IMG/VR virus record: IMGVR_UViG_3300032205_000001
Coordinates: 108,218-172,217 of that record
DNA length: 64,000 nt
DNA from: a virus
Lineage: Duplodnaviria > Heunggongvirae > Uroviricota > Caudoviricetes
Reading direction: 5' to 3' (one strand)
The position numbers and the translations under genes are program-made. The notes beneath the pieces were generated by a model. The model was given only the letters and a program-made list of their open reading frames with translations. It was not told the origin of the DNA and did not search any database. Shown in pieces: positions 505 to 16,854 of the stretch. The number at the start of each line of letters is the position of its first letter. Within the stretch, counting starts at the first letter, position 1.

Positions 505-2343
505 CTAAGCGACCTTGTCGTCCTCGGTCTGAGTCTCGACGGTTGCCTGGTCATGGGAACGGAAGACATTCTCCTCTGGAACGTCGTCATTGTCAAAGGC
601 CAAGACGCCCTTGGTGGCACGACGAGTCGATGGGATGTACTGCGCGTTCTCGGGACCCTTGACGTAGTCCTTCTTCCAGAACCTCTTAATCGCAAGCCAT
701 TCGCCAGGCTGAGGCAGCGCCATGTCACGCTCGCGCAGTTCGTTGCGAACCCACTCATCGACAGGGCGGTCCTTGTAGATGCTGTACTTCTTATTGTCGA
801 GATCAAGTTCCAGTTCGACATCCATCGGCGTGTAGCCACGATAGATTTTGCAGCACCAGTGGCCGCGCACATCAAATCGATGAGACAGCTTCGCGCGCAG
901 CTTGCCGCCTGAGTATCCCTTGCTGATCTCCCTGATCACTTTGTCGCGCAGGTAGACCGTGTAGAACATCGGAGGGACGGCTTGCTTGATGCCGAGGTCG
1001 CCAAGCTTGTTCTTGAACTTGCTGATCGTGTGCAGGCTGGGCTTGCGCTGAGCGATGACGGTTGAGTGGTGATCGTTGATGCAGTCGACGAGCCCGTGCA
1101 GGACGAACGGCGCCAAACACAGCTTGTGGTTCCACATCACGAATTCCTGGACGTGGTGCGTAGAGATATGGAGGTTCATCTCCCAGGTCTCGCCGTGATC
1201 GATGTAGCCCTTGCTGATCAAAATCTCGTGATGCTCGCCGCTGGCCTCGGCGATGATGCCGACGAGCATGTATTCACCTGGGTCAAGACCACGCGTCTCA
1301 GCCTGGAGCTGGGAAAGCGCAATTCCGCCTGTGAGCGCAAACCAGCAAGTGTCGAACGGAAGCTTGTCCGGGAACGGAAGGCGCTGCAGGGCTTCGGCCT
1401 GACGCTTGTGGAGAAGGATCCCCTCTTCCTCGGGAACGTCCACATGTCCCTCACGAGGGTCGTAGAACTTGAGATGGGCGATATCCTCGGTGACGTGACG
1501 GTCGACCGAAATATGCAGCTCGTTGTACGACTCCGGCGTGATCTCGAAGATGCGCGCTTTGCGAAGGTAGTTGTACATAGCCCCGCACTCGGTACGGAAC
1601 TTCTCTTTGACCTTCTTGTTCCCCCAGTTCTGCTTGAGGGCGCGGAGAACCATCAGGTAGTTCTCGACGACGTACTCGTGGGCCTTGTTGTCGGGCTTGC
1701 CCCACCACGGCATCTCCTTTGGCTTCCACGGCAGCGGTCCGCCACCGATTTCTTCTAGAAGTGTAGGGATGCGCAGGATGCGCTCCATCTGAAGCTTGAG
1801 CCGGCTGGTCTCAGGAAGCCACTGCGGCGCCTTCGCGCGCAACGTTTTCAGCGTGTCTTCCCATGCCCGCTGGATGCTGGAACGAAGCTCGTCGGCGGTG
1901 AACCTCTCGGCCTGCTCCAAGATCATGTTGATGATGCCACCGGGAAAATGGCCGCCATCATTGAAGTACAGCCAGTAGACGTCTTTCTCTTCGTCTTGGC
2001 GACGCGCACGCAAGAACCACATCCCCCACTTTTTGCGGAGGCTCTCGAACAGCAGCCGGTCGTTTTCCGAGACTCGGTAGCCGACCCATTGCTCACCGCT
2101 ATCCAGCATGAGGCCGATGTATTTAGGGTTCGGCGACTTTGATGGCTTGTCAGCGTCGAGCTTGTCCTGCCACCGGATGGTGATGTTGCCCTCGGGGATT
2201 ACCTGCTGTTCTGTCACAGGCCAGATGAGCTGAACGACGGGGTAGAGATAATGCGTCGCCCCCCTTGGACAAGGGACCGCATCCGCTCCGACACGGACGA
2301 TGTTCTGTCCTTCGACGATGGGGGTGTCCGGGGTGACCTTCAT
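505..2343 (-). CDS. large hypothetical phage protein (612 aa)
   Basis: Long ORF with natural composition; no family recognised. Confidence 0.8.
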   Translation of the reverse strand: MKVTPDTPIVEGQNIVRVGADAVPCPRGATHYLYPVVQLIWPVTEQQVIPEGNITIRWQDKLDADKPSKSPNPKYIGLMLDSGEQWVGYRVSENDRLLFESLRKKWGMWFLRARRQDEEKDVYWLYFNDGGHFPGGIINMILEQAERFTADELRSSIQRAWEDTLKTLRAKAPQWLPETSRLKLQMERILRIPTLLEEIGGGPLPWKPKEMPWWGKPDNKAHEYVVENYLMVLRALKQNWGNKKVKEKFRTECGAMYNYLRKARIFEITPESYNELHISVDRHVTEDIAHLKFYDPREGHVDVPEEEGILLHKRQAEALQRLPFPDKLPFDTCWFALTGGIALSQLQAETRGLDPGEYMLVGIIAEASGEHHEILISKGYIDHGETWEMNLHISTHHVQEFVMWNHKLCLAPFVLHGLVDCINDHHSTVIAQRKPSLHTISKFKNKLGDLGIKQAVPPMFYTVYLRDKVIREISKGYSGGKLRAKLSHRFDVRGHWCCKIYRGYTPMDVELELDLDNKKYSIYKDRPVDEWVRNELRERDMALPQPGEWLAIKRFWKKDYVKGPENAQYIPSTRRATKGVLAFDNDDVPEENVFRSHDQATVETQTEDDKVA

Positions 2344-3384: not shown

Positions 3385-4054
3385 TTAATCCCAGTCCCCT
3401 CTCAGGTACCTCTTGAGCTGCCACTGCTTGTTCAGCACGTGATCAGTGACAACGCCGTCCTGAGAACGGATCGTTCTGCGTTTGTCTCCCCGCATCCCCG
3501 AACCGACCTGTTCACGCCGCGAAGATGACGTTTGCGCAGAATGTTGGTTGTGTGCCGCATCCCAGAGTCTTGCTCGAAGAACCTCAAGCGCAGTTTCTTT
3601 GTTGCTGTGCTGAGATCTTTCAGACTCACATCTAACCGTGATCCCGCTCGGTATGTGCGTGAGCACGACGGCGCTATCCGTCACGTTTCGGTGCTGGCCG
3701 CCGGCCCCAGATCCACGACAGAATTTCCAATCCAGGTCGCCATCGTTGACGATGACCTGAGTCGGAGAGCGCTCGGGCAGAACGGCAACCGTGATGGTGC
3801 TGGTCTGCATCCGTCCACGCTTCTCGGTGGGCGGCACCCTCTGCCATCTGTGCCCACCTGATTCGTTGGCAAACGCTACATCGGAGCCCTTGCCAGAGGC
3901 CTTGAAGACAAGAAGGCCTGGTCTCTCGCTCACGATTTCGAGGTCAAAGACCCCTCCGAGCCCCCATCTTTGCGTAGATCGCAAACTGGTCGCGAACGAG
4001 TAATTTGGCATCATCGCCGCCCTCGGCGGCCCTAATTTCGACAAAAACCGACAT
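3385..4054 (-). CDS. class I peptide chain release factor-like protein (RF1-type PxT, GGQ; lacks domain 1), expressed via +1 programmed frameshift, 222 aa
   Basis: ORF1 from ATG 4054 MSVFVEIRAAEGGDDAKLL...RRGL ends at CTT-TGA-C (3949-3943); the +1 frame continues DLEIVSERPG...GGHRWQRVPPTE...GSGAGGQHRN. Confidence 0.9.
3943..3958 (-). promoter_or_regulatory. prfB-type +1 frameshift cassette (internal SD GGAGG, 3-nt spacer, CTT TGA C)
   Basis: Minus-strand CGGAGG-GGT-CTT-TGA-C; same layout as E. coli prfB AGGGGG-TAT-CTT-TGA-C. Confidence 0.85.
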
Positions 4055-4072
4055 CCACCGACCATAGCCGAT

Positions 4073-4258: not shown

Positions 4259-4876
4259 TCAGCTGTCGACGATCTTGCGACCTTCAACCTCGCCATATTT
4301 CGTCATGACGCGGTCGATCCATTTCTGGGTCTTGGCCTTCGACATGACGAGCTTATGTCCTTCTCCGCCTTTACCGACGACACCTTCTTCGGTGATGTCG
4401 GATATCTCTCCCTGTCGGACTTGGTCGACGAAGCCACGCGTCCATCGACGAGTGCCGAGAAATCTGGGAATGTTGAGATGCTCGAACAGCTTGAGAAATT
4501 GTTTCGGGCCGAGAATTCCCTTCTTGTACGGATTCACATCGAACAGGGTTAGCTGTTTTTCGTCTTCAGGTTCATGGAGCCCAGCGAACGAGCGAGGTCC
4601 CCAGAATTCAGTGAAAACGATCATCCGTTCCCATCGCTCATCGCGTGCGACCTTGATCAGTGGTTCAGCGAGAGTTCTTTCAAACACGGCGATGGCGCCG
4701 CCGAACACCTCGTCGGTTTCGTCAAACAAACGAGTGCGAGTGCCGTGCTTGTACCAGCCGCTCTTCCTGGCCCACTCCCAACGCAGGTTGGAACCGTCGA
4801 GCTTGTCGAAGACGTAGGCATCGAATTCTCGAAAGTCCTGCCCAGTGCTTCGCGGGATGGATGGATAGTCCTTCAT
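4259..4876 (-). CDS. ATP-dependent RNA ligase-like nucleotidyltransferase
   Basis: Motif I KLDGSN, EF(W)G motif, EGVV motif IV, C-terminal KAK. Confidence 0.8.
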   Translation of the reverse strand: MKDYPSIPRSTGQDFREFDAYVFDKLDGSNLRWEWARKSGWYKHGTRTRLFDETDEVFGGAIAVFERTLAEPLIKVARDERWERMIVFTEFWGPRSFAGLHEPEDEKQLTLFDVNPYKKGILGPKQFLKLFEHLNIPRFLGTRRWTRGFVDQVRQGEISDITEEGVVGKGGEGHKLVMSKAKTQKWIDRVMTKYGEVEGRKIVDS

Positions 4877-10850: not shown

Positions 10851-10894
10851 CTTGCTTACCGTTGCTCCCTTCCGGGCCTGGCGGGGTTCACAAG
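10851..10894 (-). ncRNA. SRP RNA domain IV (helix 8) hairpin
   Basis: CTTGTGAACCCCGCCAGG-CCC-GGAA-GGG-AGCAACGGTAAGCAAG: CAGG/AGCA symmetric loop and GGAA tetraloop. Confidence 0.8.
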
Positions 10895-10938: not shown

Positions 10939-11067
10939 TCTGGCAGTGAAGAGTCGAACTTCTGTTTGATAACCGTTTCCGGTCGGTTCGCGAACGAACA
11001 AAGAAGTGGTCACGGAGCGCTACAGGCTTGCGCCTGCACCCTAGGGCCCTCCTAGGGAAGCTGCCAG
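10939..11067 (-). ncRNA. tRNA-like/Y-like hybrid RNA 1
   Basis: CTGGCAG/CTGCCAG ends, T-loop TTCGACT, two hairpins in place of the D arm, module TTGTTCG-TTCG-CGAACCGA...ACGGTTATC. Confidence 0.75.
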
Positions 11068-11069
11068 AT

Positions 11070-11202
11070 TGGTCGACAGGGTCGGGAATTGAACCCAACT
11101 ACCACCAGTCCCTTGGTAACCATAAATCTACGGTTCACCGAAGCGAACAAAGAGCGATCCACGGCGTTTTTTACTGGTGCTCTACCGTTGAGCTACCTGT
11201 CG
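11070..11202 (-). ncRNA. tRNA/Y-like hybrid RNA 2
   Basis: Full tRNA body with CCA; module TTGTTCGC-TTCG-GTGAACCG...ATGGTTACC inserted in the anticodon arm. Confidence 0.8.
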
Positions 11203-11203
11203 G

Positions 11204-11274
11204 TCCCCCACGGAAGAGTCGAACTTCCGTCCTTCGCTTATCAAGCAACCGCTCTGCCATTGAGCTAGTGGGGG
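11204..11274 (-). tRNA. tRNA-Ile(GAU)
   Basis: Loop TTGATAA. Confidence 0.82.
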
Positions 11275-11330
11275 TTGTTACAGATCTTTGTGCGTTTGTT
11301 CCAGATCCAGATCGGGGATAGCCTTTGATC

Positions 11331-11489
11331 ATGCTGATCGCAATCTGGCCACTCGTCATCGCCGTCATTGGCGCCCTTGTGTACGCGCTTGCGAGTAACT
11401 CGAAAGCGGCTGAACTTGGCCGCCTCGTGTTCTTCTGCGGGTTCTTCTGGCTGGTGTACAGCCTCGTTGGACACACGCTGAAGATGTGA
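11331..11489 (+). CDS. small two-TM membrane protein (52 aa)
   Basis: Manual translation MLIAIWPLVIAVIGALVYALAS...FFCGFFWLVYSLVGHTLKM; sits exactly between two tRNA-Ile genes. Confidence 0.65.
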   Translation: MLIAIWPLVIAVIGALVYALASNSKAAELGRLVFFCGFFWLVYSLVGHTLKM

Positions 11490-11492
11490 TCG

Positions 11493-11565
11493 TAGGACTG
11501 GCTGGATTTGAACCAGCTACCCCGCGCTTATCAAGCACGTGCTCTACCAAGTGAGCTACAGTCCC
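11493..11565 (-). tRNA. tRNA-Ile(GAU)
   Basis: Loop TTGATAA. Confidence 0.9.
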
Positions 11566-11575
11566 AAACTGAAAG

Positions 11576-11659
11576 TGCCGGTGACAGGGGTCGAACCTGC
11601 CTGGCCTTGCGGCCACTGCGCCCTGAACGCAGCGTGTCTACCAAATCCACCACACCGGC
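11576..11659 (-). tRNA. tRNA-Leu(CAG)
   Basis: Loop TTCAGGG, variable arm. Confidence 0.9.
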
Positions 11660-11663
11660 AAAA

Positions 11664-12069
11664 GGGAAGTCCGTGAGTGTGCTGCTACGCCAAATGCTCT
11701 AAGGGCTGTTTCGGCCGTCGGGGCTCTCGCACTTCTGCGTTCGCACTGCTTCCCCTCAGACCCGCATTTCCTCTCGTACTGCGCGGGCAAAGCCGATCCG
11801 TGCTACCTGACTGTTTGGTCACGAGCGCCGAAGCTGTTGGAGGAAACTTACCCGTTTGACCGGGGTTAGAAATGCCAACGTGCTGCAACGCCGTCTAGTC
11901 TTCGCGTCCCTGTGGTTATACTCCGGTCGAGCAGTCTATCCCTCGGTCGTACTATTGACCTTTGTTGGGGACCGGAAAAGCTTGATTTCGCCTGCGCCGG
12001 GCTACTTTCTACCACTCGCAACTCTTCAAAGGATTGCTGCTTCTAAGCCAACCTCCTCATCGTCCTTCC
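11664..12069 (-). ncRNA. ~405-nt structured RNA containing 23S rRNA H43 and sarcin-ricin loop sequences
   Basis: GGAGGTTGGCTTAGAAGCAGCAATCCTTTGAAGAG at 12022-12056; CCCGC-GC-AGTACGAGAGGAA-AT-GCGGG at 11761-11787; ends pair GGAAG/CTTCC; bounded by two tRNAs. Confidence 0.75.
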
Positions 12070-12070
12070 G

Positions 12071-12144
12071 TCGGGGTGGTGAGACTCGAACTCACGAATT
12101 CCCTGGTCCCAAACCAGGTGTCCTGGCCGCTAGACTACACCCCG
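12071..12144 (-). tRNA. tRNA-Pro(UGG)
   Basis: C1-G72, loop TTTGGGA. Confidence 0.88.
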
Positions 12145-12150
12145 TAAACA

Positions 12151-12525
12151 CTAACCGAACCTGTTGCTGCCGAACGGCGCTATCATGCATCGTACGCCAG
12201 CATCGTCAAGAATTCCTGCCATCCTTCGACGACCAGCATCGTTAAATGAGTGCAGGACAACGAACTTTGGCCGCATCTCTTCCGGCAAGGTGGCGATGAA
12301 TTCAGCCACGTGTGTGCCGGTCTTCTCGTCGGATGCTGGACGACCAGCCGCAGCTAGCTCGGACAGGTCGTGGTCAAGGTACGCGAGATCGAACTTGGTC
12401 TTGGCAAGAGCCGCGCAAGCATCTGCGTAGTTCATGACCGCTGTGATGTCCATGCCGATGCGATCCATCTTGAACTTCTTGTGGCGCTCAGCGTCGTCGT
12501 CTAGGAAGAAAATTTTCTGGTTCAT
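12151..12525 (-). CDS. cyclic-phosphate processing receiver (cREC)-like domain protein
   Basis: FLDDD...YLDHDL...TG...LHSFN..GRRRM signature. Confidence 0.8.
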   Translation of the reverse strand: MNQKIFFLDDDAERHKKFKMDRIGMDITAVMNYADACAALAKTKFDLAYLDHDLSELAAAGRPASDEKTGTHVAEFIATLPEEMRPKFVVLHSFNDAGRRRMAGILDDAGVRCMIAPFGSNRFG

Positions 12526-12533
12526 ATGATCTT

Positions 12534-12668
12534 TGGTTGGACAGGTCGGGCTCGAACCGACAACACTCCGCGTTCTAGGCGATAACCATTCCTCGGTCGG
12601 TTCACTTGCGTGAACAAGGAATTGAAAAACGGCGTTTTAGAGGCCTCTACCAATTGGGCTACTGTCCA
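12534..12668 (-). ncRNA. tRNA/Y-like hybrid RNA 3
   Basis: TGGACAG/CTGTCCA-A-CCA; module TTGTTCAC-GCAA-GTGAACCG...ATGGTTATC in the 5' strand of the anticodon stem; residual loop CTAGAAC. Confidence 0.8.
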
Positions 12669-12678
12669 AAAAGTTTCG

Positions 12679-12808
12679 TTGCGCAACCAGGACTCGAACC
12701 TGGAACATCCCGCTTAATAGGCGATAACCATCTCTCGATCGGTTCGGTTGCCCGAACAATGTGGTGAAAAACGGTGTTTTAGGCGCTCTACCCTTGAGCT
12801 ATTGCGCA
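12679..12808 (-). ncRNA. tRNA/Y-like hybrid RNA 4
   Basis: TGCGCAA/TTGCGCA; module TTGTTCGG-GCAA-CCGAACCG...ATGGTTATC; residual loop CTATTAA. Confidence 0.8.
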
Positions 12809-12819
12809 GTAACAGATCG

Positions 12820-12946
12820 AGCGGCGAGGAGGAATTGGACCTCCACTTTCTCCTTGCATGGGATAACCATCCTCAGGCGGTTCGGTTGCCCGAACAAGAT
12901 GGCGAAGACGGAGATTTTAGACGTGCTACCGTTACACTATCGCCGC
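12820..12946 (-). ncRNA. tRNA/Y-like hybrid RNA 5
   Basis: GCGGCGA/TCGCCGC; module TTGTTCGG-GCAA-CCGAACCG...ATGGTTATC; residual loop CATGCAA. Confidence 0.8.
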
Positions 12947-12948
12947 AG

Positions 12949-13021
12949 TGGGAGCGGAGGGATTTGAGCCCTAACACCGAACGGCTTATGAGACCGTCGT
13001 CCTGACCCGCAGGTCGCTCCC
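12949..13021 (-). tRNA. tRNA(CAU), elongator Met or Ile2
   Basis: Loop CTCATAA; reduced D arm; T-loop CTCAAAT. Confidence 0.7.
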
Positions 13022-13022
13022 G

Positions 13023-13217
13023 TTATACAAGGCCGTGCTTTTCAGCCAGCCACAGTGGAATCACTAGGGTGCCCTCCGTGTCTTCCTTGTAGACCTCGGA
13101 GTCGTCGTCGATCTGAGACTTAGGAAGCCAGACCTCCTCGCCTTCGATCTCCACGAGGAGGGCCTTCTCGGTCTCACGAAGTGCCTTTGCGTTCTGGATT
13201 TGGACTGTTTCCGCCAT
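13023..13217 (-). CDS. small acidic hypothetical protein
   Basis: 64 aa, ETEKALLV...WLPKSQI; SD-like sequence upstream. Confidence 0.7.
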   Translation of the reverse strand: MAETVQIQNAKALRETEKALLVEIEGEEVWLPKSQIDDDSEVYKEDTEGTLVIPLWLAEKHGLV

Positions 13218-13303
13218 CCGAGGAACCCTCGATACTTGGACGGGAAACCATTGTCAAGAACCGTCGGTTGCTGGATCTACCGAACTTGTAGTATTCATGG
13301 GAC

Positions 13304-13852
13304 ATGTTCAGGCCACTGATCGACGCTTTCCGTGCCGAGCTTCAGGAAGACGAGACGTCCACCGATCGCCCAGAGCCAGAAGGCGAAAAGAAGGCTGCTC
13401 CAGATGCTGAAGCCTCGCCGAAGCGGAGCAAGCACGACCGCGCCTCCGATCGGATGGGCTTCATCCTGAGCACTCCGCTTGCGAACATGTCCCGCAAGAA
13501 GATGATGAAGATGATCCCGCATCTGATGCATCACTTCACGAAGGGTCACGGCAAGCCAGGCGAAGATGGCAGCGTTGACCGGGATGACCTGTCCACGCTG
13601 AGTCGTCATGCGAAGCACATCTCCGACCAGGCCAACGGCATTCGTCGTATGCCTGGAGCGGCTCACCACCTCGCTGGTCACCTCACGCGGCACGTTGCTG
13701 ACTGCCACGATCGTATGGCCAAGACGATGAAGATGGCCGACATGCCAGAAGAGGCCGACCTTCACGCGAACGAGGGTGGCAAGTTCCGTGCGCTATCGAA
13801 GCACCACAAGATGACCGCTCGCCGTCACGGCATCTACGACGAGAGCTACTAG
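13304..13852 (+). CDS. His-rich hypothetical protein
   Basis: 182-aa ORF antisense to the array. Confidence 0.65.
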   Translation: MFRPLIDAFRAELQEDETSTDRPEPEGEKKAAPDAEASPKRSKHDRASDRMGFILSTPLANMSRKKMMKMIPHLMHHFTKGHGKPGEDGSVDRDDLSTLSRHAKHISDQANGIRRMPGAAHHLAGHLTRHVADCHDRMAKTMKMADMPEEADLHANEGGKFRALSKHHKMTARRHGIYDESY

Positions 13853-14088
13853 AAACGATCCCAGGGCGGCATGTGCGGCGAACGCTGCACGTGATCCCTC
13901 CAGCCAGTGGCGCCAGGCACGAACGAACCAAGGTACGGCTGCCAGTGTGGCTTGACTCGATGAACCTCATCGCGAGCGTTCTCGAAGTCTAGCTTGCCGT
14001 CTACGTAGTCGACGTAGAGGAAGATCGTGTCCTTGACCTCTCCGCAGCCCTGGTAAACGTTCAGCAGTGTCAGCTTCCTCGTGCGCAT
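13849..14088 (-). CDS. hypothetical protein
   Basis: ORF from ATG 14088 with SD AAAGGA. Confidence 0.55.
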   Translation of the reverse strand: MRTRKLTLLNVYQGCGEVKDTIFLYVDYVDGKLDFENARDEVHRVKPHWQPYLGSFVPGATGWRDHVQRSPHMPPWDRF

Positions 14089-14102
14089 GTCGTCCTTTCT
14101 AG

Positions 14103-14173
14103 TCCACCACGCTGGACTTGAACCAGCAACCAACCGCTTATAGGGCAGCCGCTCTACATTGAGCTAGTGGTGG
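14103..14173 (-). tRNA. tRNA-Ile(UAU)
   Basis: Loop CCTATAA. Confidence 0.75.
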
Positions 14174-14174
14174 A

Positions 14175-14244
14175 TGGCAGGCTGTGAGGGAATCGAACCC
14201 CCCTTCCCGGCTTTGGAGACCAGGACCGTCCCAGACGACAACCT
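14175..14244 (-). tRNA. tRNA-Trp(CCA), reduced D arm
   Basis: Loop CTCCAAA, G73, CCA. Confidence 0.75.
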
Positions 14245-14249
14245 AAGAG

Positions 14250-14321
14250 CGCATCTACGAGGACTTGAACCTCGGTTTCAGCTTTCGGAGAGCTGTGTCC
14301 TATCCACTGGACGATAGATGC
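14250..14321 (-). tRNA. tRNA-Arg(CCG)
   Basis: Loop CTCCGAA. Confidence 0.88.
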
Positions 14322-14322
14322 A

Positions 14323-14397
14323 TGGTACCCCTACCAGGACTCTAACCCGGATCTGCCGGTCCGTAGCCGACCGCTCTTTACATTGAGCTATAGGGGC
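14323..14397 (-). tRNA. tRNA-Arg(ACG)
   Basis: Loop CTACGGA, CCA; T-loop TTAGAGT. Confidence 0.8.
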
Positions 14398-14398
14398 A

Positions 14399-14474
14399 TG
14401 GTGACTCCAAGAGGACTCGAACCTCTAACTTCCTGTTCCGTAGACAGGCGCTCTATCCATTGAGCTATGGAGCC
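14399..14474 (-). tRNA. tRNA-Arg(ACG)
   Basis: Loop CTACGGA, CCA. Confidence 0.9.
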
Positions 14475-14489
14475 AAGAAACGATCGGCT

Positions 14490-14744
14490 CTACGGTGAAC
14501 CGGAGCCGAGATGCTTAATGTACGCTGCCAGCCGGGCGACGACTTCATCAGCTTGGGGGTAGCTGATGTCGCGTAGGACTTGCTCGATGGTGGACAGAAT
14601 TTTGGTGTCTGGCCAGCCGCATCCACGAGCATCCTTGTAGAACGAGACCCAACAAGGGATCAAATCGTTCCGCCGGAGAAACTCGAAGACGATCTCAAGC
14701 GGTATCCCGCGAGAATTGTATGCGGCGAACACGTTGCCCACCAC
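14490..14744 (-). CDS. hypothetical protein
   Basis: 84-aa ORF; F..Y...G.PL motif loosely like an AlaRS segment. Confidence 0.55.
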   Translation of the reverse strand: MVGNVFAAYNSRGIPLEIVFEFLRRNDLIPCWVSFYKDARGCGWPDTKILSTIEQVLRDISYPQADEVVARLAAYIKHLGSGSP

Positions 14745-14919
14745 GTACCTTCCGTCTCTGGTCTCTCCTATGTAGAAAAGCTTTCGGCGTCCCGCGACAT
14801 TTCGTACCTCCGTTGTGAATGAGTTAAGTACGCGTTGCCCGACTTACGCGGCAGGGTAGCCACCGCGCACCATACCTGGCTGCACCATTAAGATTATCTT
14901 GAGTGGAACACGTACCTAG

Positions 14920-14993
14920 AGCCCGCACCCAGAGTCGAACTGGGCCATCCTGCTTACCAAGCAGGCGTGCCGAACCGCGATCACTTTACGGGC
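14920..14993 (-). tRNA. tRNA-Thr(GGU)
   Basis: Loop TTGGTAA; unusual D arm. Confidence 0.75.
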
Positions 14994-14997
14994 ATGC

Positions 14998-15203
14998 TGC
15001 TTCTGGTCGGATTTGAACCGACGTCTCTCGATTCGTCATGCGTCGCATGTAGTCGACCGATTGATCAGACCGGCCTCCTTGAAGGTGATCTGCCTCCGTG
15101 CGACTTACCCGGTCAGCTCAGCCGTAAGAGACGATCTATCCCTCCGTGCTGTGCCGATGAGCTGCTGCTTGATCGAGCGCCTTAACCACTAGGCTACAGG
15201 AGC
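14998..15203 (-). ncRNA. tRNA body with ~130-140-nt insertion at the anticodon loop
   Basis: GCTCCTG acceptor, D arm TAGCCTAGTGGTTAAGGC, stem CTCGAT/ATCGAG enclosing the insert, T arm GTCGG-TTCAAAT-CCGAC. Confidence 0.8.
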
Positions 15204-15358
15204 AAAAGTTTGATTCTCCCAGTTTGTGCTCGTGACTAGACCTTTCCGTCGGGCCCTGCTGACGCTCCACATTACTGGGCGTCCGTCCGAGTTACTGGTT
15301 GGTATCTCATCGGCTGGTTCTAGAAGGGCCGACTTTGACCTCCAGACGAATCACTCCG

Positions 15359-15431
15359 TACACGAGCTGGGACTCGAACCCAGGATATTCGGCATGTGAA
15401 GCCGACGTTCTTGCCGCTGAACTACTCGTGC
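15359..15431 (-). tRNA. tRNA-Val(CAC)
   Basis: Loop TTCACAT. Confidence 0.88.
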
Positions 15432-15436
15432 GTGAC

Positions 15437-15542
15437 GTGAACAAGGTGTGCATCTTGGAGATCAGCAACCACCGTTTAGAAGCGGCAGCGCATGACAGTC
15501 GGGTTATTAACCTGATTTGGTAACCAATCTGCGTCGGTTCAC
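15437..15542 (-). ncRNA. Y-RNA-like element A
   Basis: GTGAAC-C-GA...TGGTTACC...CCAA...TT-GTTCAC. Confidence 0.7.
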
Positions 15543-15546
15543 TTCG

Positions 15547-15618
15547 TGCGCGATACTGGAATCGAACCAGTGATCTCTTGCATGTCAAGCAAGCGTTCTG
15601 CCGCTGAACTAATCGCGC
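15547..15618 (-). tRNA. tRNA-Val(GAC)
   Basis: Loop TTGACAT. Confidence 0.9.
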
Positions 15619-15621
15619 ATA

Positions 15622-15680
15622 GACGAACAAGTGGGTGCTCGTGGGTGATTTACAAGATAACCCATGGGCTTCGGTTCGTC
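15622..15680 (-). ncRNA. Y-RNA-like element B
   Basis: GACGAAC-C-GA...TGGGTTATC...ACCCAC...TT-GTTCGTC. Confidence 0.75.
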
Positions 15681-15802
15681 GAAAATCTGTGCCTTTGACT
15701 CCAGGAAAAATCCGGTTATATTTGATCCGATGATCTGAGACCAGTGTATCGGTCTCATTGATGCCCGACCTCTGGAGTGATGGTGGGCGGCTGGCGCTTT
15801 GA

Positions 15803-15878
15803 TGGTGACCCTGGTGGGAATCGAACCCAACATTTCCGGGGTGAAAAGCCGGTTGCTTAGCCATTGGCAGACAGGGCC
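15803..15878 (-). tRNA. tRNA-Glu(UUC)
   Basis: Loop TTTTCAC, CCA. Confidence 0.8.
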
Positions 15879-15882
15879 ATGT

Positions 15883-16071
15883 ATGAAGAAGGAAGATCTA
15901 GTTCGCTGGTTGAAAGTTTACGGAGACCACAAGGACAGCTGTGGAATTACCCAGGTGATCAGAGATCACCGGGCGAAAACCGACTCGGAGGGCAGAAAAA
16001 TCTACCCAGAATGCAGCTGCGGCTGGACTGAGATCAGCCGGTCGCTGGACAAACTATTCAAGCTGAATTGA
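15883..16071 (+). CDS. hypothetical protein (62 aa)
   Basis: ATG 15883 to TGA 16071 fills the gap between two tRNAs; HxxxC...CxC. Confidence 0.5.
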   Translation: MKKEDLVRWLKVYGDHKDSCGITQVIRDHRAKTDSEGRKIYPECSCGWTEISRSLDKLFKLN

Positions 16072-16140
16072 GCACGCCGAGGGAGTCGAACCCACTACTT
16101 ACAGGGTTGCAATCTGTAGCCTGGCCGCCAGGTGACGTGC
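16071..16140 (-). tRNA. tRNA-Cys(GCA)
   Basis: Loop TTGCAAC, U73. Confidence 0.8.
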
Positions 16141-16146
16141 AAAGCC

Positions 16147-16212
16147 CACGAACAAAGAGATGAACCTTGGGGTGATCATTAACAGTGATAACCAAAGCTC
16201 GAACGGTTCGCG
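16147..16212 (-). ncRNA. Y-RNA-like element C
   Basis: CGCGAAC-C-GT...TTGGTTATC...CCAA...TT-GTTCGTG. Confidence 0.72.
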
Positions 16213-16221
16213 GAAAAAATT

Positions 16222-16286
16222 GAACGAACAAGTTGGTTGCTCCAAGGAGTCACATGTTAGGTAACCTTGGTGCGATCGGTTCGCTC
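16222..16286 (-). ncRNA. Y-RNA-like element D
   Basis: GAGCGAAC-C-GA...CCAAGGTTACC...CCTTGG...TT-GTTCGTTC. Confidence 0.75.
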
Positions 16287-16324
16287 GAAAAGTTCGGTGA
16301 GCAAGAATTTGTGACTGGTTAGGT

Positions 16325-16398
16325 TGGTCGGGAGGCGGATTTCAACCGCTACCTCCGGGGGTTCTAGCCCCGGCGCTCTAGCAATTAAGCTACCCCGG
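16325..16398 (-). ncRNA. aberrant tRNA, anticodon AGA, short class I body, weak acceptor stem
   Basis: CCGGGG-CTAGAAC-CCCCGG; encoded CCA; only about 5 acceptor pairs. Confidence 0.6.
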
Positions 16399-16424
16399 CG
16401 GTAATCCAATCACGACGGCTCACC

Positions 16425-16501
16425 TGGCATCGCTACAGGGATTCGAACCCTGGTTTCCGCGCTGAGAACGCAGCGTACTCGGCCGACTGTACGATAGCGA
16501 C
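16425..16501 (-). tRNA. tRNA-Glu(CUC)
   Basis: Loop TTCTCAG, CCA. Confidence 0.85.
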
Positions 16502-16507
16502 AAAATA

Positions 16508-16566
16508 GCGAACAAGTTTGTGCTCGTGGGGTACATTTGGCAGATAACCCACATGCTTCGGTTCGC
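16508..16566 (-). ncRNA. Y-RNA-like element E
   Basis: GCGAAC-C-GA...GTGGGTTATC...CCCAC...TT-GTTCGC. Confidence 0.75.
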
Positions 16567-16567
16567 A

Positions 16568-16644
16568 TGGTGACCCTACTGGGATTTGAACCCGAGATTT
16601 CAGCCTTGAGAGGGCCGCGTCCTAAACCGTTGGACGATAGGGCC
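16568..16644 (-). tRNA. tRNA-Glu(CUC)
   Basis: Loop CTCTCAA, CCA. Confidence 0.9.
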
Positions 16645-16647
16645 AAA

Positions 16648-16714
16648 GAACGAACAAGAAATGGAGCAGGGGTTGTTCATCCAATTGAGGTAACCCTGTT
16701 CCGACGGTTCGTCC
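16648..16714 (-). ncRNA. Y-RNA-like element F
   Basis: GGACGAAC-C-GT...CAGGGTTACC...CCCTG...TT-GTTCGTTC. Confidence 0.75.
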
Positions 16715-16725
16715 AAAAAGAAAGC

Positions 16726-16811
16726 GATGAACAAGTAGCGCGTCTGGCTTGCAGGTTCGACCCTGCACGGCTTTCGCCGCTTTTCCGATAACTCAAACGC
16801 CTCGGTTCACC
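16726..16811 (-). ncRNA. Y-RNA-like element G with internal T-arm-like hairpin
   Basis: GGTGAAC-C-GA-G-GCGTTTG-AGTTATC...GCAGG-GTCGAA-CCTGC...CAGACGC...TT-GTTCATC. Confidence 0.72.
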
Positions 16812-16854
16812 TAAAACGGACTTTCGCCTGTCTTGAGGCGATTGTCAAAAGGAA

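What the first reader, a model, noticed from the sequence alone, without database searches (positions are those of the whole stretch)
10939..16811. Twelve copies of a Y RNA/sbRNA-like module, in two circular permutations, inside a phage tRNA array
Seen in sequence: seven free-standing elements (15437, 15622, 16147, 16222, 16508, 16648, 16726) share a layout. A terminal stem GAAC-C-G(A/T) pairs with TT-GTTC, leaving one bulged C. An internal loop follows, then a compensating upper stem ending in GG (AG in G), then unpaired TTA(T/C)C. The upper stems covary (CCAAGG/CCTTGG, GTGGG/CCCAC, CAGGG/CCCTG, GCGTTTG/CAGACGC). Five more copies occur permuted (next finding). Established knowledge, from recall: the Ro60-binding helix of animal Y RNAs is GGUC-(bulged C)-GA/UU-GAC, and UUAUC after the upper stem is conserved in vertebrate Y RNAs and nematode sbRNAs. 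Inference: this is a multicopy phage Y-like RNA family closer to the animal type than to bacterial YrlA, probably titrating or redirecting host Ro60/Rsr and linked RNA decay or repair. No Ro60 gene is recognisable in this window.
Basis: partly seen in the sequence, partly recalled or inferred. Interest (0 to 1): 0.93.

Follow-up and report, generated by a model that had tools for sequence, protein, structure and literature searches.

The report
Phage Y-RNA array among tRNA genes
A large T4-like phage carries thirteen small RNA genes in its tRNA gene cluster that all show the docking site of the RNA-surveillance protein Ro60; eight are hairpins like animal Y RNAs and five are built into tRNA-shaped bodies, a layout I did not find in the papers I could search.

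Summary
All lie on the minus strand, the strand of the tRNA genes. Eight are free-standing; the eighth carries a whole tRNA-like unit in its loop. Five are tRNA-shaped RNAs in which the module replaces the anticodon loop and a tetraloop caps its lower stem.

A covariance model built only from this window's copies finds:
- orthologous arrays in four related phages;
- family members at most about 0.7 kb upstream of Ro60 (TROVE) genes in six phage records;
- 64 hits in 43 of 80 bacterial Ro60 loci, all on the Ro60 strand.

The stems covary strongly. C8-G, bulged C9, G10.U and UUA(U/C)C never change. The best Rfam match besides tRNA is a nematode stem-bulge RNA family, not YrlA.

The 175-kb record has no Ro60 gene, but it ends where a colinear relative continues for 90 kb. 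That relative encodes a canonical Ro60 with a family member 60 nt upstream.

Verdict: these are genuine Y RNAs, probably released by tRNA processing and probably partners of a phage-encoded Ro60 rather than decoys for host Ro60. This is a new variant of a known system. This scan has met similar phage arrays on other DNA. No transcript or binding data could be obtained.

The parts
16725..16812 (-). F1: free-standing Y RNA. The handle carries a roughly 40-nt apical insert with two hairpins, one of them T-arm-like.
   Evidence: R1 51.7 bits; fold
16648..16714 (-). F2: free-standing Y RNA, 67 nt. Its 3' end lies 3 nt from the 5' end of tRNA-Glu.
   Evidence: R1 57.8 bits; tRNA coordinates
16506..16568 (-). 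F3: free-standing Y RNA, 63 nt, wedged between two tRNA-Glu genes.
   Evidence: R1 64.3 bits; RF01656 28.4 bits
16295..16425 (-). A Y handle (GAGC-C-GU with UU-GCUC) encloses a 74-nt tRNA-like unit (16326-16399, 'Ser aga', no long variable arm).
   Evidence: R1 26.8 bits; orthologues in L122, L127 and L134; tRNA
16222..16286 (-). F4: free-standing Y RNA, 65 nt.
   Evidence: R1 69.3 bits
16146..16213 (-). F5: free-standing Y RNA, 68 nt. Its 3' end lies 5 nt from a tRNA-like gene (16072-16140).
   Evidence: R1 58.1 bits
15621..15681 (-). F6: free-standing Y RNA, 61 nt. Its 3' end lies 2 nt from the 5' end of tRNA-Val(gac).
   Evidence: R1 62 bits; RF01656 33.6 bits with alignment
15435..15544 (-). 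F7: free-standing Y RNA, 110 nt, with a branched apical insert. It lies between two tRNA-Val genes with gaps of 1 and 3 nt.
   Evidence: R1 54.3 bits
12820..12946 (-). P1: tRNA-shaped Y RNA. It has acceptor, D and T arms; the handle replaces the anticodon loop; the lower stem is capped by GCAA.
12679..12808 (-). P2: tRNA-shaped Y RNA.
   Evidence: R2 149.8 bits
12534..12668 (-). P3: tRNA-shaped Y RNA with an encoded CCA end. It stops about 10 nt before the cRec start codon.
11070..11202 (-). P4: tRNA-shaped Y RNA with a 5-bp anticodon stem (CCAGU/ACUGG), a UUCG cap and an encoded CCA end.
   Evidence: R2 98.9 bits
10939..11068 (-). P5: a variant scaffold. It keeps the acceptor stem and T arm, two hairpins replace the D arm, and the handle is capped by UUCG.
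   Evidence: orthologues L122e and L127d
12151..12525 (-). cRec (cyclic-phosphate-processing receiver) gene directly downstream of P1-P3. The same adjacency is kept in four related phages.
   Evidence: PF20274, E 1.6e-12
16568..16644 (-). tRNA-Glu(ctc) abutting F2 and F3 (inferred processing neighbour).
16425..16501 (-). tRNA-Glu(ctc) abutting F3 and F8.
15546..15618 (-). tRNA-Val(gac) abutting F6 and F7.
15358..15431 (-). tRNA-Val(cac), 3 nt downstream of F7.

Best explanation
The thirteen elements are Y RNAs, the small RNA partners of the ring-shaped protein Ro60 (Rsr).

They share one 'handle'. It has a lower helix with C8-G, a bulged C9, G10.U and A11-U. Above that sit an asymmetric internal loop and a roughly 9-bp covarying upper stem ending in GG, followed by unpaired UUA(U/C)C. 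This handle most likely docks on the outer face of Ro60 as in animal Y RNAs (inferred).

The handle carries different 'heads'. F2-F6 have short loops and F1 and F7 have branched inserts. F8 holds a whole tRNA-like unit joined through its acceptor end. P1-P5 have a tRNA-like body joined through its anticodon stem. P1-P5 are the circular permutation of YrlA: tRNA gene order, an open acceptor end and a closed Ro60 stem.

All copies lie in the tRNA operon at 0-11 nt from their neighbours. They are probably cut out of the polycistronic transcript by RNase P and the tRNA 3'-end enzymes (inferred).

The partner is most likely a phage-encoded canonical Ro60 whose gene lies beyond the end of this truncated record (inferred from synteny).

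The RNP probably tethers Ro60 to tRNA-recognising or RNA-decay and repair factors (PNPase, RNA ligase, cRec). It would then handle damaged or misfolded tRNA and other structured RNA during infection (inferred from what is known of Rsr, Y RNA and PNPase and of the rsr-yrl-rtcBA operon).
For: 1. The repeat is real. There are 11 half-pattern matches against 0.01 expected, and 8 R1 hits in the window with none elsewhere in the record.

2. Structure. On 54 sequences, 90.1% of cells pair against 39-44% when partners are slid. 15 of 19 pairs show changes on both sides. The covariation score is 0.604 against 0.10-0.15. A6, C8, C9, G10.U and UUA(U/C)C never change, including in the 31 sequences that do not fit my search pattern.

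3. tRNA-shaped copies. On 17 copies from 5 phages, 85.7% of cells pair against 36-47% slid. Compensatory changes occur in 7/7 acceptor, 3/4 D-stem and 4/5 T-stem pairs.

4. Orthologous arrays, in the same order, occur in relatives L122, L126/G011, L127 and L129.

5. Ro60 linkage in phages. R1 hits lie at most about 0.7 kb upstream of TROVE ORFs, on the same strand, in G001, G002, G004, G006, G007 and G011.

6. Ro60 linkage in bacteria. In 80 Ro60 loci, R1 gives 64 hits in 43 loci, all 64 on the Ro60 strand. R2 finds long tRNA-shaped hits of 50-90 bits in many of these loci, every listed hit on the Ro60 strand.

7. The relative's Ro60. G011 positions 1-104 kb are colinear with this record's 79-175 kb. 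G011 then continues and encodes a 557-aa Ro60 (TROVE 134.7 bits, vWA_Ro60 210 bits). It scores 431 bits to D. radiodurans Rsr and 408-410 bits to vertebrate Ro60. An R1 hit sits 60 nt upstream.

8. Rfam. The only family other than the tRNA-clan models that matches the elements themselves at E below 0.1 is the nematode sbRNA family RF01656. The alignment runs through both stems and UGGGUUAUC...CCCA.

9. Context. The cRec gene starts 11 nt after P3, and an RNA-ligase-like ORF is nearby. Phage and bacterial Y RNAs are established (PMC4201824, PMC12135203).
Against: - The 175 kb held contains no Ro60 gene (TROVE and DUF2828 searches are empty). Its presence is inferred from a single relative. The nearer relative (the 294-kb contig) could not be searched.
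- There are no transcript, processing or binding data.
- Rfam Y_RNA RF00019 gives no match, and RF01656 stays below its gathering score in this window.
- Alignments A2 and A5 were fitted to the model, and part of the outside sample was recruited with a pattern containing the conserved motifs. This inflates apparent invariance.
- Co-occurrence with TROVE is weak evidence on its own. 2 of 4 jumbo contigs taken as a control also carry TROVE. The case rests on adjacency and strand.
- What the heads bind is unknown.
Confidence: 0.8

Rival explanations
1. The RNAs are Y-RNA decoys that capture the host's Ro60. The phage has no Ro60 of its own and floods the cell with handles, to titrate host Rsr away from its own Y RNAs or to redirect it.
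For: The 175 kb held has no TROVE gene. Thirteen copies suit titration. The nearest bacterial Ro60 homologues, mostly Myxococcota, have the same handle next to their genes, so a host Ro60 would recognise these RNAs.
Against: The colinear relative G011 has its own canonical Ro60 with a family member directly upstream, in a region beyond this record's end. All seven held phage records at 90% completeness or more that have R1 hits encode TROVE. The host is unknown.
Confidence: 0.12
2. The elements work without Ro60. They would be processing or insulating hairpins of the tRNA operon, or ligands of another phage protein, and the likeness to Y RNA would be convergent.
For: They sit at tRNA junctions. 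No binding data exist. A conserved 612-aa protein of unknown fold is encoded in the same region.
Against: A model built only from these copies finds 64 of 64 hits on the Ro60 strand in bacterial Ro60 loci, and hits directly upstream of Ro60 in six phage records. A spacer needs no unpaired UUA(U/C)C, bulged C and G.U held constant from 31% to 74% G+C.
Confidence: 0.05
3. P1-P5 are tRNA genes with an intron. The module would be cut out and the halves joined by the phage RNA ligase and cRec to give decoding tRNAs.
For: The body is tRNA-like and the insert sits at the anticodon position. RNA-repair genes are adjacent.
Against: P1-P3 keep only 3 bp of the anticodon stem. What remains has no U33-NNN-purine loop. 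The flanking loop letters differ between orthologues: AAAAAA in P4 against UUUA in L127c. ARAGORN calls no tRNA there. The insert is the same conserved handle found free-standing and beside Ro60.
Confidence: 0.03

Closest known systems
YrlA (Rfam RF02553), the tRNA-like Y RNA of bacteria and mycobacteriophages (Chen et al. 2014, PMC4201824; Wang et al. 2018, bioRxiv 10.1101/312249)
   Same: Both join a Ro60-binding stem to a tRNA-like domain with D and T arms. Both occur in phages and are linked to RNA-repair genes. M. smegmatis YrlA is even cut by RNase P.
   Different: YrlA is a permuted tRNA: T arm, closed acceptor, D arm, with the RNA ends in the Ro60 stem. P1-P5 have normal tRNA order, an open acceptor end (two with encoded CCA) and a Ro60 stem closed by a tetraloop. 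The handle here has the animal-type bulged helix plus UUA(U/C)C. The YrlA model finds none of the 13 copies.
Metazoan Y RNAs and nematode stem-bulge RNAs (Rfam RF00019, RF01656; Kowalski and Krude 2015, PMC4726728)
   Same: Lower stem with C8-G, bulged C9, G10.U and A11-U. An asymmetric internal loop. An upper stem ending in GGG, followed by UUAUC. Sizes of 61-68 nt for F2-F6. The RF01656 alignment covers both stems.
   Different: These are not RNA polymerase III genes. They have no 3' U tail for La and sit inside a tRNA operon. There is no RF00019 match, and RF01656 stays below its gathering score in this window. The review states that bacterial Y RNAs are not homologous to vertebrate ones; this family questions that.
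Short prokaryotic and phage Y RNAs: YrlB (Salmonella, M. smegmatis), and Yrl1 and Yrl2 of Thermus phage phiLo (PMC12135203)
   Same: Small stem-bulge-stem RNAs encoded beside Ro60. Yrl1 and Yrl2 bind phage Ro60 and form a complex with host PNPase.
   Different: Those were found by a CGAA motif next to a divergent Ro60. The G011 Ro60 matches the phiLo protein at only 31 bits. They come in one or two copies and are not in tRNA arrays.
ncRNAs released by tRNA-processing enzymes (for example mascRNA, Rfam RF01684; from my own knowledge)
   Same: RNase P and the 3'-end enzymes, acting on an adjoining tRNA or tRNA-like unit, define the ends of a neighbouring non-coding RNA.
   Different: Here the mechanism is only inferred from the 0-5 nt spacing. 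The system is bacterial and phage-borne.

Membership tests
Animal Y RNA / sbRNA (RF00019, RF01656) | Terminal helix with C8-G, bulged C9, G10.U and A11-U (the Ro60 site) | tested here: met
   C8-G, C9 and G10.U are the same in all 54 sequences. A11-U holds in 35 of the 54 sequences (65%), most of the rest having U at position 11.
Animal Y RNA / sbRNA (RF00019, RF01656) | UUAUC directly after the 5' strand of the upper stem | tested here: met
   UUA(U/C)C in all 54 sequences. In the window it is UUAUC in 8 copies and UUACC in 5.
Animal Y RNA / sbRNA (RF00019, RF01656) | Score at or above the Rfam gathering threshold | tested here: not met
   RF00019 gives no match at E up to 10. RF01656 gives 33.6 and 28.4 bits against 38. 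Bacterial members of the same family reach 39.8-42.8 bits.
Animal Y RNA / sbRNA (RF00019, RF01656) | Own RNA polymerase III gene with a 3' oligo-U tail (La site) | tested here: not met
   The 3' ends abut tRNA genes at 1-5 nt with no U run. The genes are bacterial and lie in a tRNA operon.
Y RNA in the functional sense (Ro60 ligand) | Encoded next to, or together with, a Ro60/TROVE gene | tested here: inconclusive
   No TROVE in the 175-kb record. It is present with an adjacent family member in the colinear relative G011, beyond this record's end. Family members are adjacent to Ro60 in 6 phage records and 43 of 80 bacterial loci.
Y RNA in the functional sense (Ro60 ligand) | Binds Ro60 | not testable with these tools
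   Needs a gel-shift or co-purification experiment.
YrlA (RF02553) | tRNA-like domain with D and T arms | tested here: met
   Met for P1-P4 (P5 has the T arm only) and for the tRNA-like unit in F8: covarying acceptor, D and T stems. Not met for F2-F6, which have short loops.
YrlA (RF02553) | Permuted order: RNA ends in the Ro60 stem and an acceptor stem closed by a loop | tested here: not met
   P1-P5 have an open acceptor and a tetraloop-closed Ro60 stem. Acceptor strands pair 7/7 within a unit against 2-5/7 between neighbouring units.
YrlA (RF02553) | Score at or above the Rfam gathering threshold (69 bits) | tested here: not met
   The only matches are 18.9-28.2 bits on tRNA pairs. There are none at gathering score.
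tRNA (RF00005), for P1-P5 | Anticodon stem-loop with a 7-nt loop | tested here: not met
   ARAGORN calls none. The loop is replaced by the roughly 55-nt handle.

The most novel reading that the evidence does not exclude
This prokaryotic and phage family is the true homologue of animal Y RNAs and nematode sbRNAs. On this reading the whole handle, including the UUAUC that is so far tied to DNA replication in animals, is an ancient Ro60-recognition unit that travelled with Ro60. The tRNA-shaped, acceptor-open form made in tandem within tRNA arrays would be the ancestral state. YrlA would then have arisen from it by circular permutation, through a shift of processing frame in a tandem array. If so, Y RNAs began as by-products of tRNA operons, and the bacterial and animal branches are one family.
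Probability: 0.35. Interest if true: 0.8.

Novelty: new variant of a known kind. Interest (0 to 1): 0.64.

Why it matters
Ro60 and Y RNAs are known from animals, bacteria and a few phages. The bacterial RNAs have been regarded as unrelated in sequence to the animal ones, and many Ro60-bearing bacteria had no identified Y RNA (PMC4201824, PMC4726728).

This array, and the model built from it, point to a large family missing from Rfam with four notable properties:
- It shares the animal handle down to UUAUC.
- It fills the gap in Myxococcota, Chloroflexota, Armatimonadota and many large phages.
- It exists as a tRNA-shaped form that ordinary tRNA-processing enzymes could make.
- It comes in up to 13 versions with different heads in one phage.

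This makes three questions testable: what UUAUC does for Ro60, what the heads recruit, and how YrlA-type permuted RNAs arose. It also ties phage tRNA arrays to RNA surveillance and repair during infection.

Tried and rejected
- Ro60 in the record itself: TROVE and DUF2828 six-frame searches were empty. The DUF2828 control rang nowhere, so that search says nothing.
- Pfam on 19 large ORFs showed no Ro60-like protein.
- The 612-aa ORF 505-2343(-) as a hidden Ro60: no Pfam, PHROG or PDB sequence hit. The AlphaFold model (pLDDT 79.8) has no Foldseek PDB match. Rejected.
- Promoter and terminator scan of the array: nothing above chance on the minus strand.
- Co-occurrence control: 2 of 4 jumbo contigs with a pattern match but no R1 hit also carry TROVE. 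I therefore dropped co-occurrence as an argument and rely on adjacency and strand.
- The 294-kb relative could not be searched for Ro60 because the record is not held. It is not among the top 120 Ro60 homologues.
- Reading tandem P units in the YrlA frame (R1 hits of 19.8 and 15.9 bits across neighbours). The upper stems do not discriminate, but the acceptor strands pair only within units and tetraloops close the lower stems. Rejected as the mature form, kept as an evolutionary idea.
- tRNA-intron reading of P1-P5: rejected (see rivals).
- Host identification from the capsid protein failed; best identity is 36% to an uncultured phage.
- Two Wolin-lab reviews are not held, so I cannot exclude that parts of this are mentioned there.

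Full report
**What is there.** All 47 tRNA genes that ARAGORN finds in the window are on the minus strand, and the elements read correctly on that strand. The motif pairs GAACCG and TTGTTC occur twelve times between 10939 and 16811. The half-pattern GAACCG-N8-14-GGTTAYC occurs 11 times against 0.01 expected from shuffles.

They have:
- a lower stem GAAC-C-G(A/U) paired with UU-GUUC, leaving one bulged C;
- an asymmetric internal loop, 1-2 nt on the 5' side and 5-7 nt on the 3' side;
- an upper stem, which I find to be about 9 positions long and ending in GG;
- then unpaired UUA(U/C)C and a variable apical part.

**Model and thirteenth copy.** A covariance model (R1) built only from these seven finds them at 52-69 bits. 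It also finds an eighth copy, F8 at 16295-16425 (26.8 bits). In F8 the lower stem is GAGC-C-GU with UU-GCUC, a compensated change. Its apical part is a complete 74-nt tRNA-like unit. ARAGORN calls this unit tRNA-Ser(aga), but it lacks the long variable arm of serine tRNAs. The rest of the 175-kb record has no further copy.

**The five permuted copies.** P1-P5 are not loose modules. P1-P4 each sit in a tRNA-shaped RNA with a 7-bp acceptor stem, a D arm, a T arm and 3-5 bp of anticodon stem. The anticodon loop is replaced by the same handle turned inside out: upper stem, internal loop, and a lower stem closed by GCAA or UUCG. P5 keeps the acceptor stem, T arm and handle, but two hairpins replace the D arm. 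Seventeen such RNAs from five related phages align well. On the structure I wrote, 85.7% of cells pair against 36-47% with slid partners. Compensatory changes occur in all 7 acceptor pairs, 3 of 4 D-stem pairs and 4 of 5 T-stem pairs. Acceptor strands pair 7/7 within a unit and only 2-5/7 between neighbouring units. The mature form is therefore the tRNA frame.

**Covariation of the handle.** On 54 R1 hits from this phage, four relatives and unrelated phage contigs, 90.1% of cells pair against 39-44% slid. 15 of 19 pairs show changes on both sides, and the covariation score is 0.604 against 0.10-0.15. A6, C8, bulged C9, the G10.U wobble and UUA(U/C)C never change. That includes the 31 sequences that do not fit the pattern I used to fish in the viral collection. 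Two caveats apply: the alignment was fitted to the model, and part of the sample was ascertained with these motifs.

**What it is.** The phage is T4-like, with gp20 portal, gp21 protease and gp23 capsid at the record's end. The record has no TROVE gene. The RNA family, however, is tied to Ro60:

- In six phage records an R1 hit lies at most about 0.7 kb upstream of the TROVE ORF on the same strand: G001, G002, G004, G006, G007 and G011.
- I fetched 80 bacterial Ro60 loci with 2.5-kb flanks, mostly Myxococcota, Chloroflexota, Armatimonadota and Longimicrobia. R1 gives 64 hits in 43 of them. All 64 are on the Ro60 strand, and most are just upstream of the gene.
- A second model (R2), built from the tRNA-shaped copies, finds long hits of 130-160 nt at 50-90 bits in many of these loci. 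Every listed R2 hit there is again on the Ro60 strand. Inspection shows the same tRNA body with UUG...CCG...GGUUAYC inside.
- The same design occurs in an unrelated AT-rich 360-kb phage that has TROVE (L001).

**Where the partner gene is.** The relative G011 (194 kb) has its cRec protein 82% identical to ours. G011 positions 1-104.3 kb are colinear with this record's 79-175.2 kb. Our record stops there, while G011 runs on for another 90 kb.

In that extra part G011 encodes a 557-aa protein with TROVE (134.7 bits) and the Ro60 vWA domain (210 bits). It scores 431 bits to D. radiodurans Rsr and 408-410 bits to vertebrate Ro60. A 178-nt family member sits 60 nt upstream.

The lack of Ro60 in our record is therefore best explained by truncation. 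The true genome is probably at least 270 kb, not the 80%-complete estimate. I put the chance that this phage encodes its own Ro60 at about 0.65. Otherwise the host's Ro60 would be the partner.

**Relation to known families.** In Rfam the only family other than the tRNA-clan models that matches the elements themselves is the nematode stem-bulge RNA family RF01656 (sbRNAs are the nematode Y-RNA homologues). F6 scores 33.6 bits and F3 28.4 bits against a gathering score of 38. The alignment runs through both stems and UGGGUUAUC...CCCA. Bacterial members next to Ro60 exceed the gathering score at 39.8-42.8 bits. YrlA and the Deinococcus Y RNA model reach only about 21 bits there. Y_RNA RF00019 gives nothing.

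The family is still not a formal member of any Rfam family. It also lacks the polymerase III and La features of animal Y RNAs.

YrlA is described as a circularly permuted tRNA with a closed acceptor stem and its ends in the Ro60 stem (10.1101/312249). P1-P5 are the opposite permutation of the same two parts.

A review states that bacterial Y RNAs are highly divergent from vertebrate ones and not homologous with them. It also states that UUAUC is needed for the DNA-replication activity of sbRNAs (PMC4726728). A UUAUC that never varies in a prokaryotic, Ro60-linked family suggests the motif serves Ro60.

**How it probably works.**

Shown by computation: the conserved, covarying handle; its linkage to Ro60 genes; the variety of heads; and the packing of the genes. 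For the packing, the ends of F2, F3, F5, F6, F7 and F8 lie 0-5 nt from the ends of tRNA or tRNA-like genes. F8, F4 and F5 are 8 nt apart. P1, P2, P3 and the cRec start codon are 10-11 nt apart.

Inferred:
- One long tRNA-operon transcript is cut by RNase P and the tRNA 3'-end enzymes, which releases the Y RNAs with flush stems.
- P1-P5 are processed like tRNAs. P3 and P4 even encode CCA.
- The handle binds Ro60.
- The heads tether Ro60 to other factors.

The tight, conserved link of P1-P3 to cRec fits an RNA surveillance and repair role during infection. cRec is a predicted 2',3'-cyclic phosphate esterase tied to RNA ligases (PMC7824862). An RNA-ligase-like ORF lies nearby. Known precedents are Rsr-Y RNA-PNPase and the rsr-yrl-rtcBA operon (PMC4201824, PMC7790460). 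One plausible setting is a response to host nucleases that cut tRNA. None of this was tested.

**Novelty.** Phage Y RNAs are known from mycobacteriophages, CcrColossus, Bacillus phage G and Thermus phiLo (PMC4201824, PMC12135203). Jumbo phages with TROVE are noted in PMC7824862. In the searchable literature I did not find:
- the animal-type handle in prokaryotes;
- the tRNA-shaped, acceptor-open form;
- arrays of this size inside tRNA operons.

Two key reviews were not available. This scan has reported similar phage Ro60/Y-RNA arrays on other DNA. I rate this a new variant of a known kind.

Noticed in passing
L142-L221 (bacterial Ro60 loci), e.g. L208, L159, L220, L151, L143: Many bacterial Ro60 genes (Myxococcota, Chloroflexota, Armatimonadota, a Sorangium chromosome) sit inside large same-strand tRNA arrays. 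These arrays also hold both Y-RNA types. The whole module of tRNA array, Ro60 and Y RNAs looks like a conserved, perhaps mobile, unit.
   Followed up: partly
L171:1070-1141, L171:1905-1974, L166:2372-2444, L211:1626-1689, L216:2125-2194: Bacterial RNAs beside Ro60 score above the Rfam gathering threshold of the nematode sbRNA family RF01656 (39.8-42.8 bits). This means either real homology or a family boundary that Rfam should revisit.
   Followed up: partly
window 11664-12069 (-): A roughly 405-nt gene-free stretch between tRNA-Pro and tRNA-Leu gives weak Rfam matches to two short pieces of large-subunit rRNA: model positions 1184-1208 at 12030-12054 and 2743-2769 at 11761-11787 (E 1.3 and 4.4). 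This agrees with another first-stage note of an rRNA-mimicking RNA.
   Followed up: no
window 10851-10894 (-): An isolated hairpin matches bacterial SRP RNA just above the gathering score (40.7 bits against 40; model positions 24-66 only).
   Followed up: no
window 14998-15203 (-): A tRNA (Rfam 47.8 bits) carries an insertion of about 135 nt. It is not a member of the Y-RNA family.
   Followed up: no
window 505-2343 (-): A 612-aa protein is conserved in this phage group next to the tRNA array (36 homologues, none with a Pfam domain). Its confident AlphaFold model (pLDDT 79.8) has no Foldseek match in the PDB.
   Followed up: partly
window 3385-4065 (-) and 4259-4876 (-): A short release-factor-like protein (RF-1 and PCRF domains, 226 aa) and a truncated RNA-ligase-like protein (PHROG 548) are encoded among the tRNA genes.
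   Followed up: no
window 12612-12745 and 10992-11140 (-): R1 also scores the frame that runs from the 5' half of the handle in one P unit to the 3' half in the next (19.8 and 15.9 bits). This is the YrlA gene order, and it shows how a tandem array could yield the permuted form.
   Followed up: partly
L131:15574-15996 and L131:17620-19203 (relative G011): Just downstream of the relative's Ro60 gene lie a staphylococcal-nuclease-like ORF and a second vWA-domain protein.
   Followed up: no
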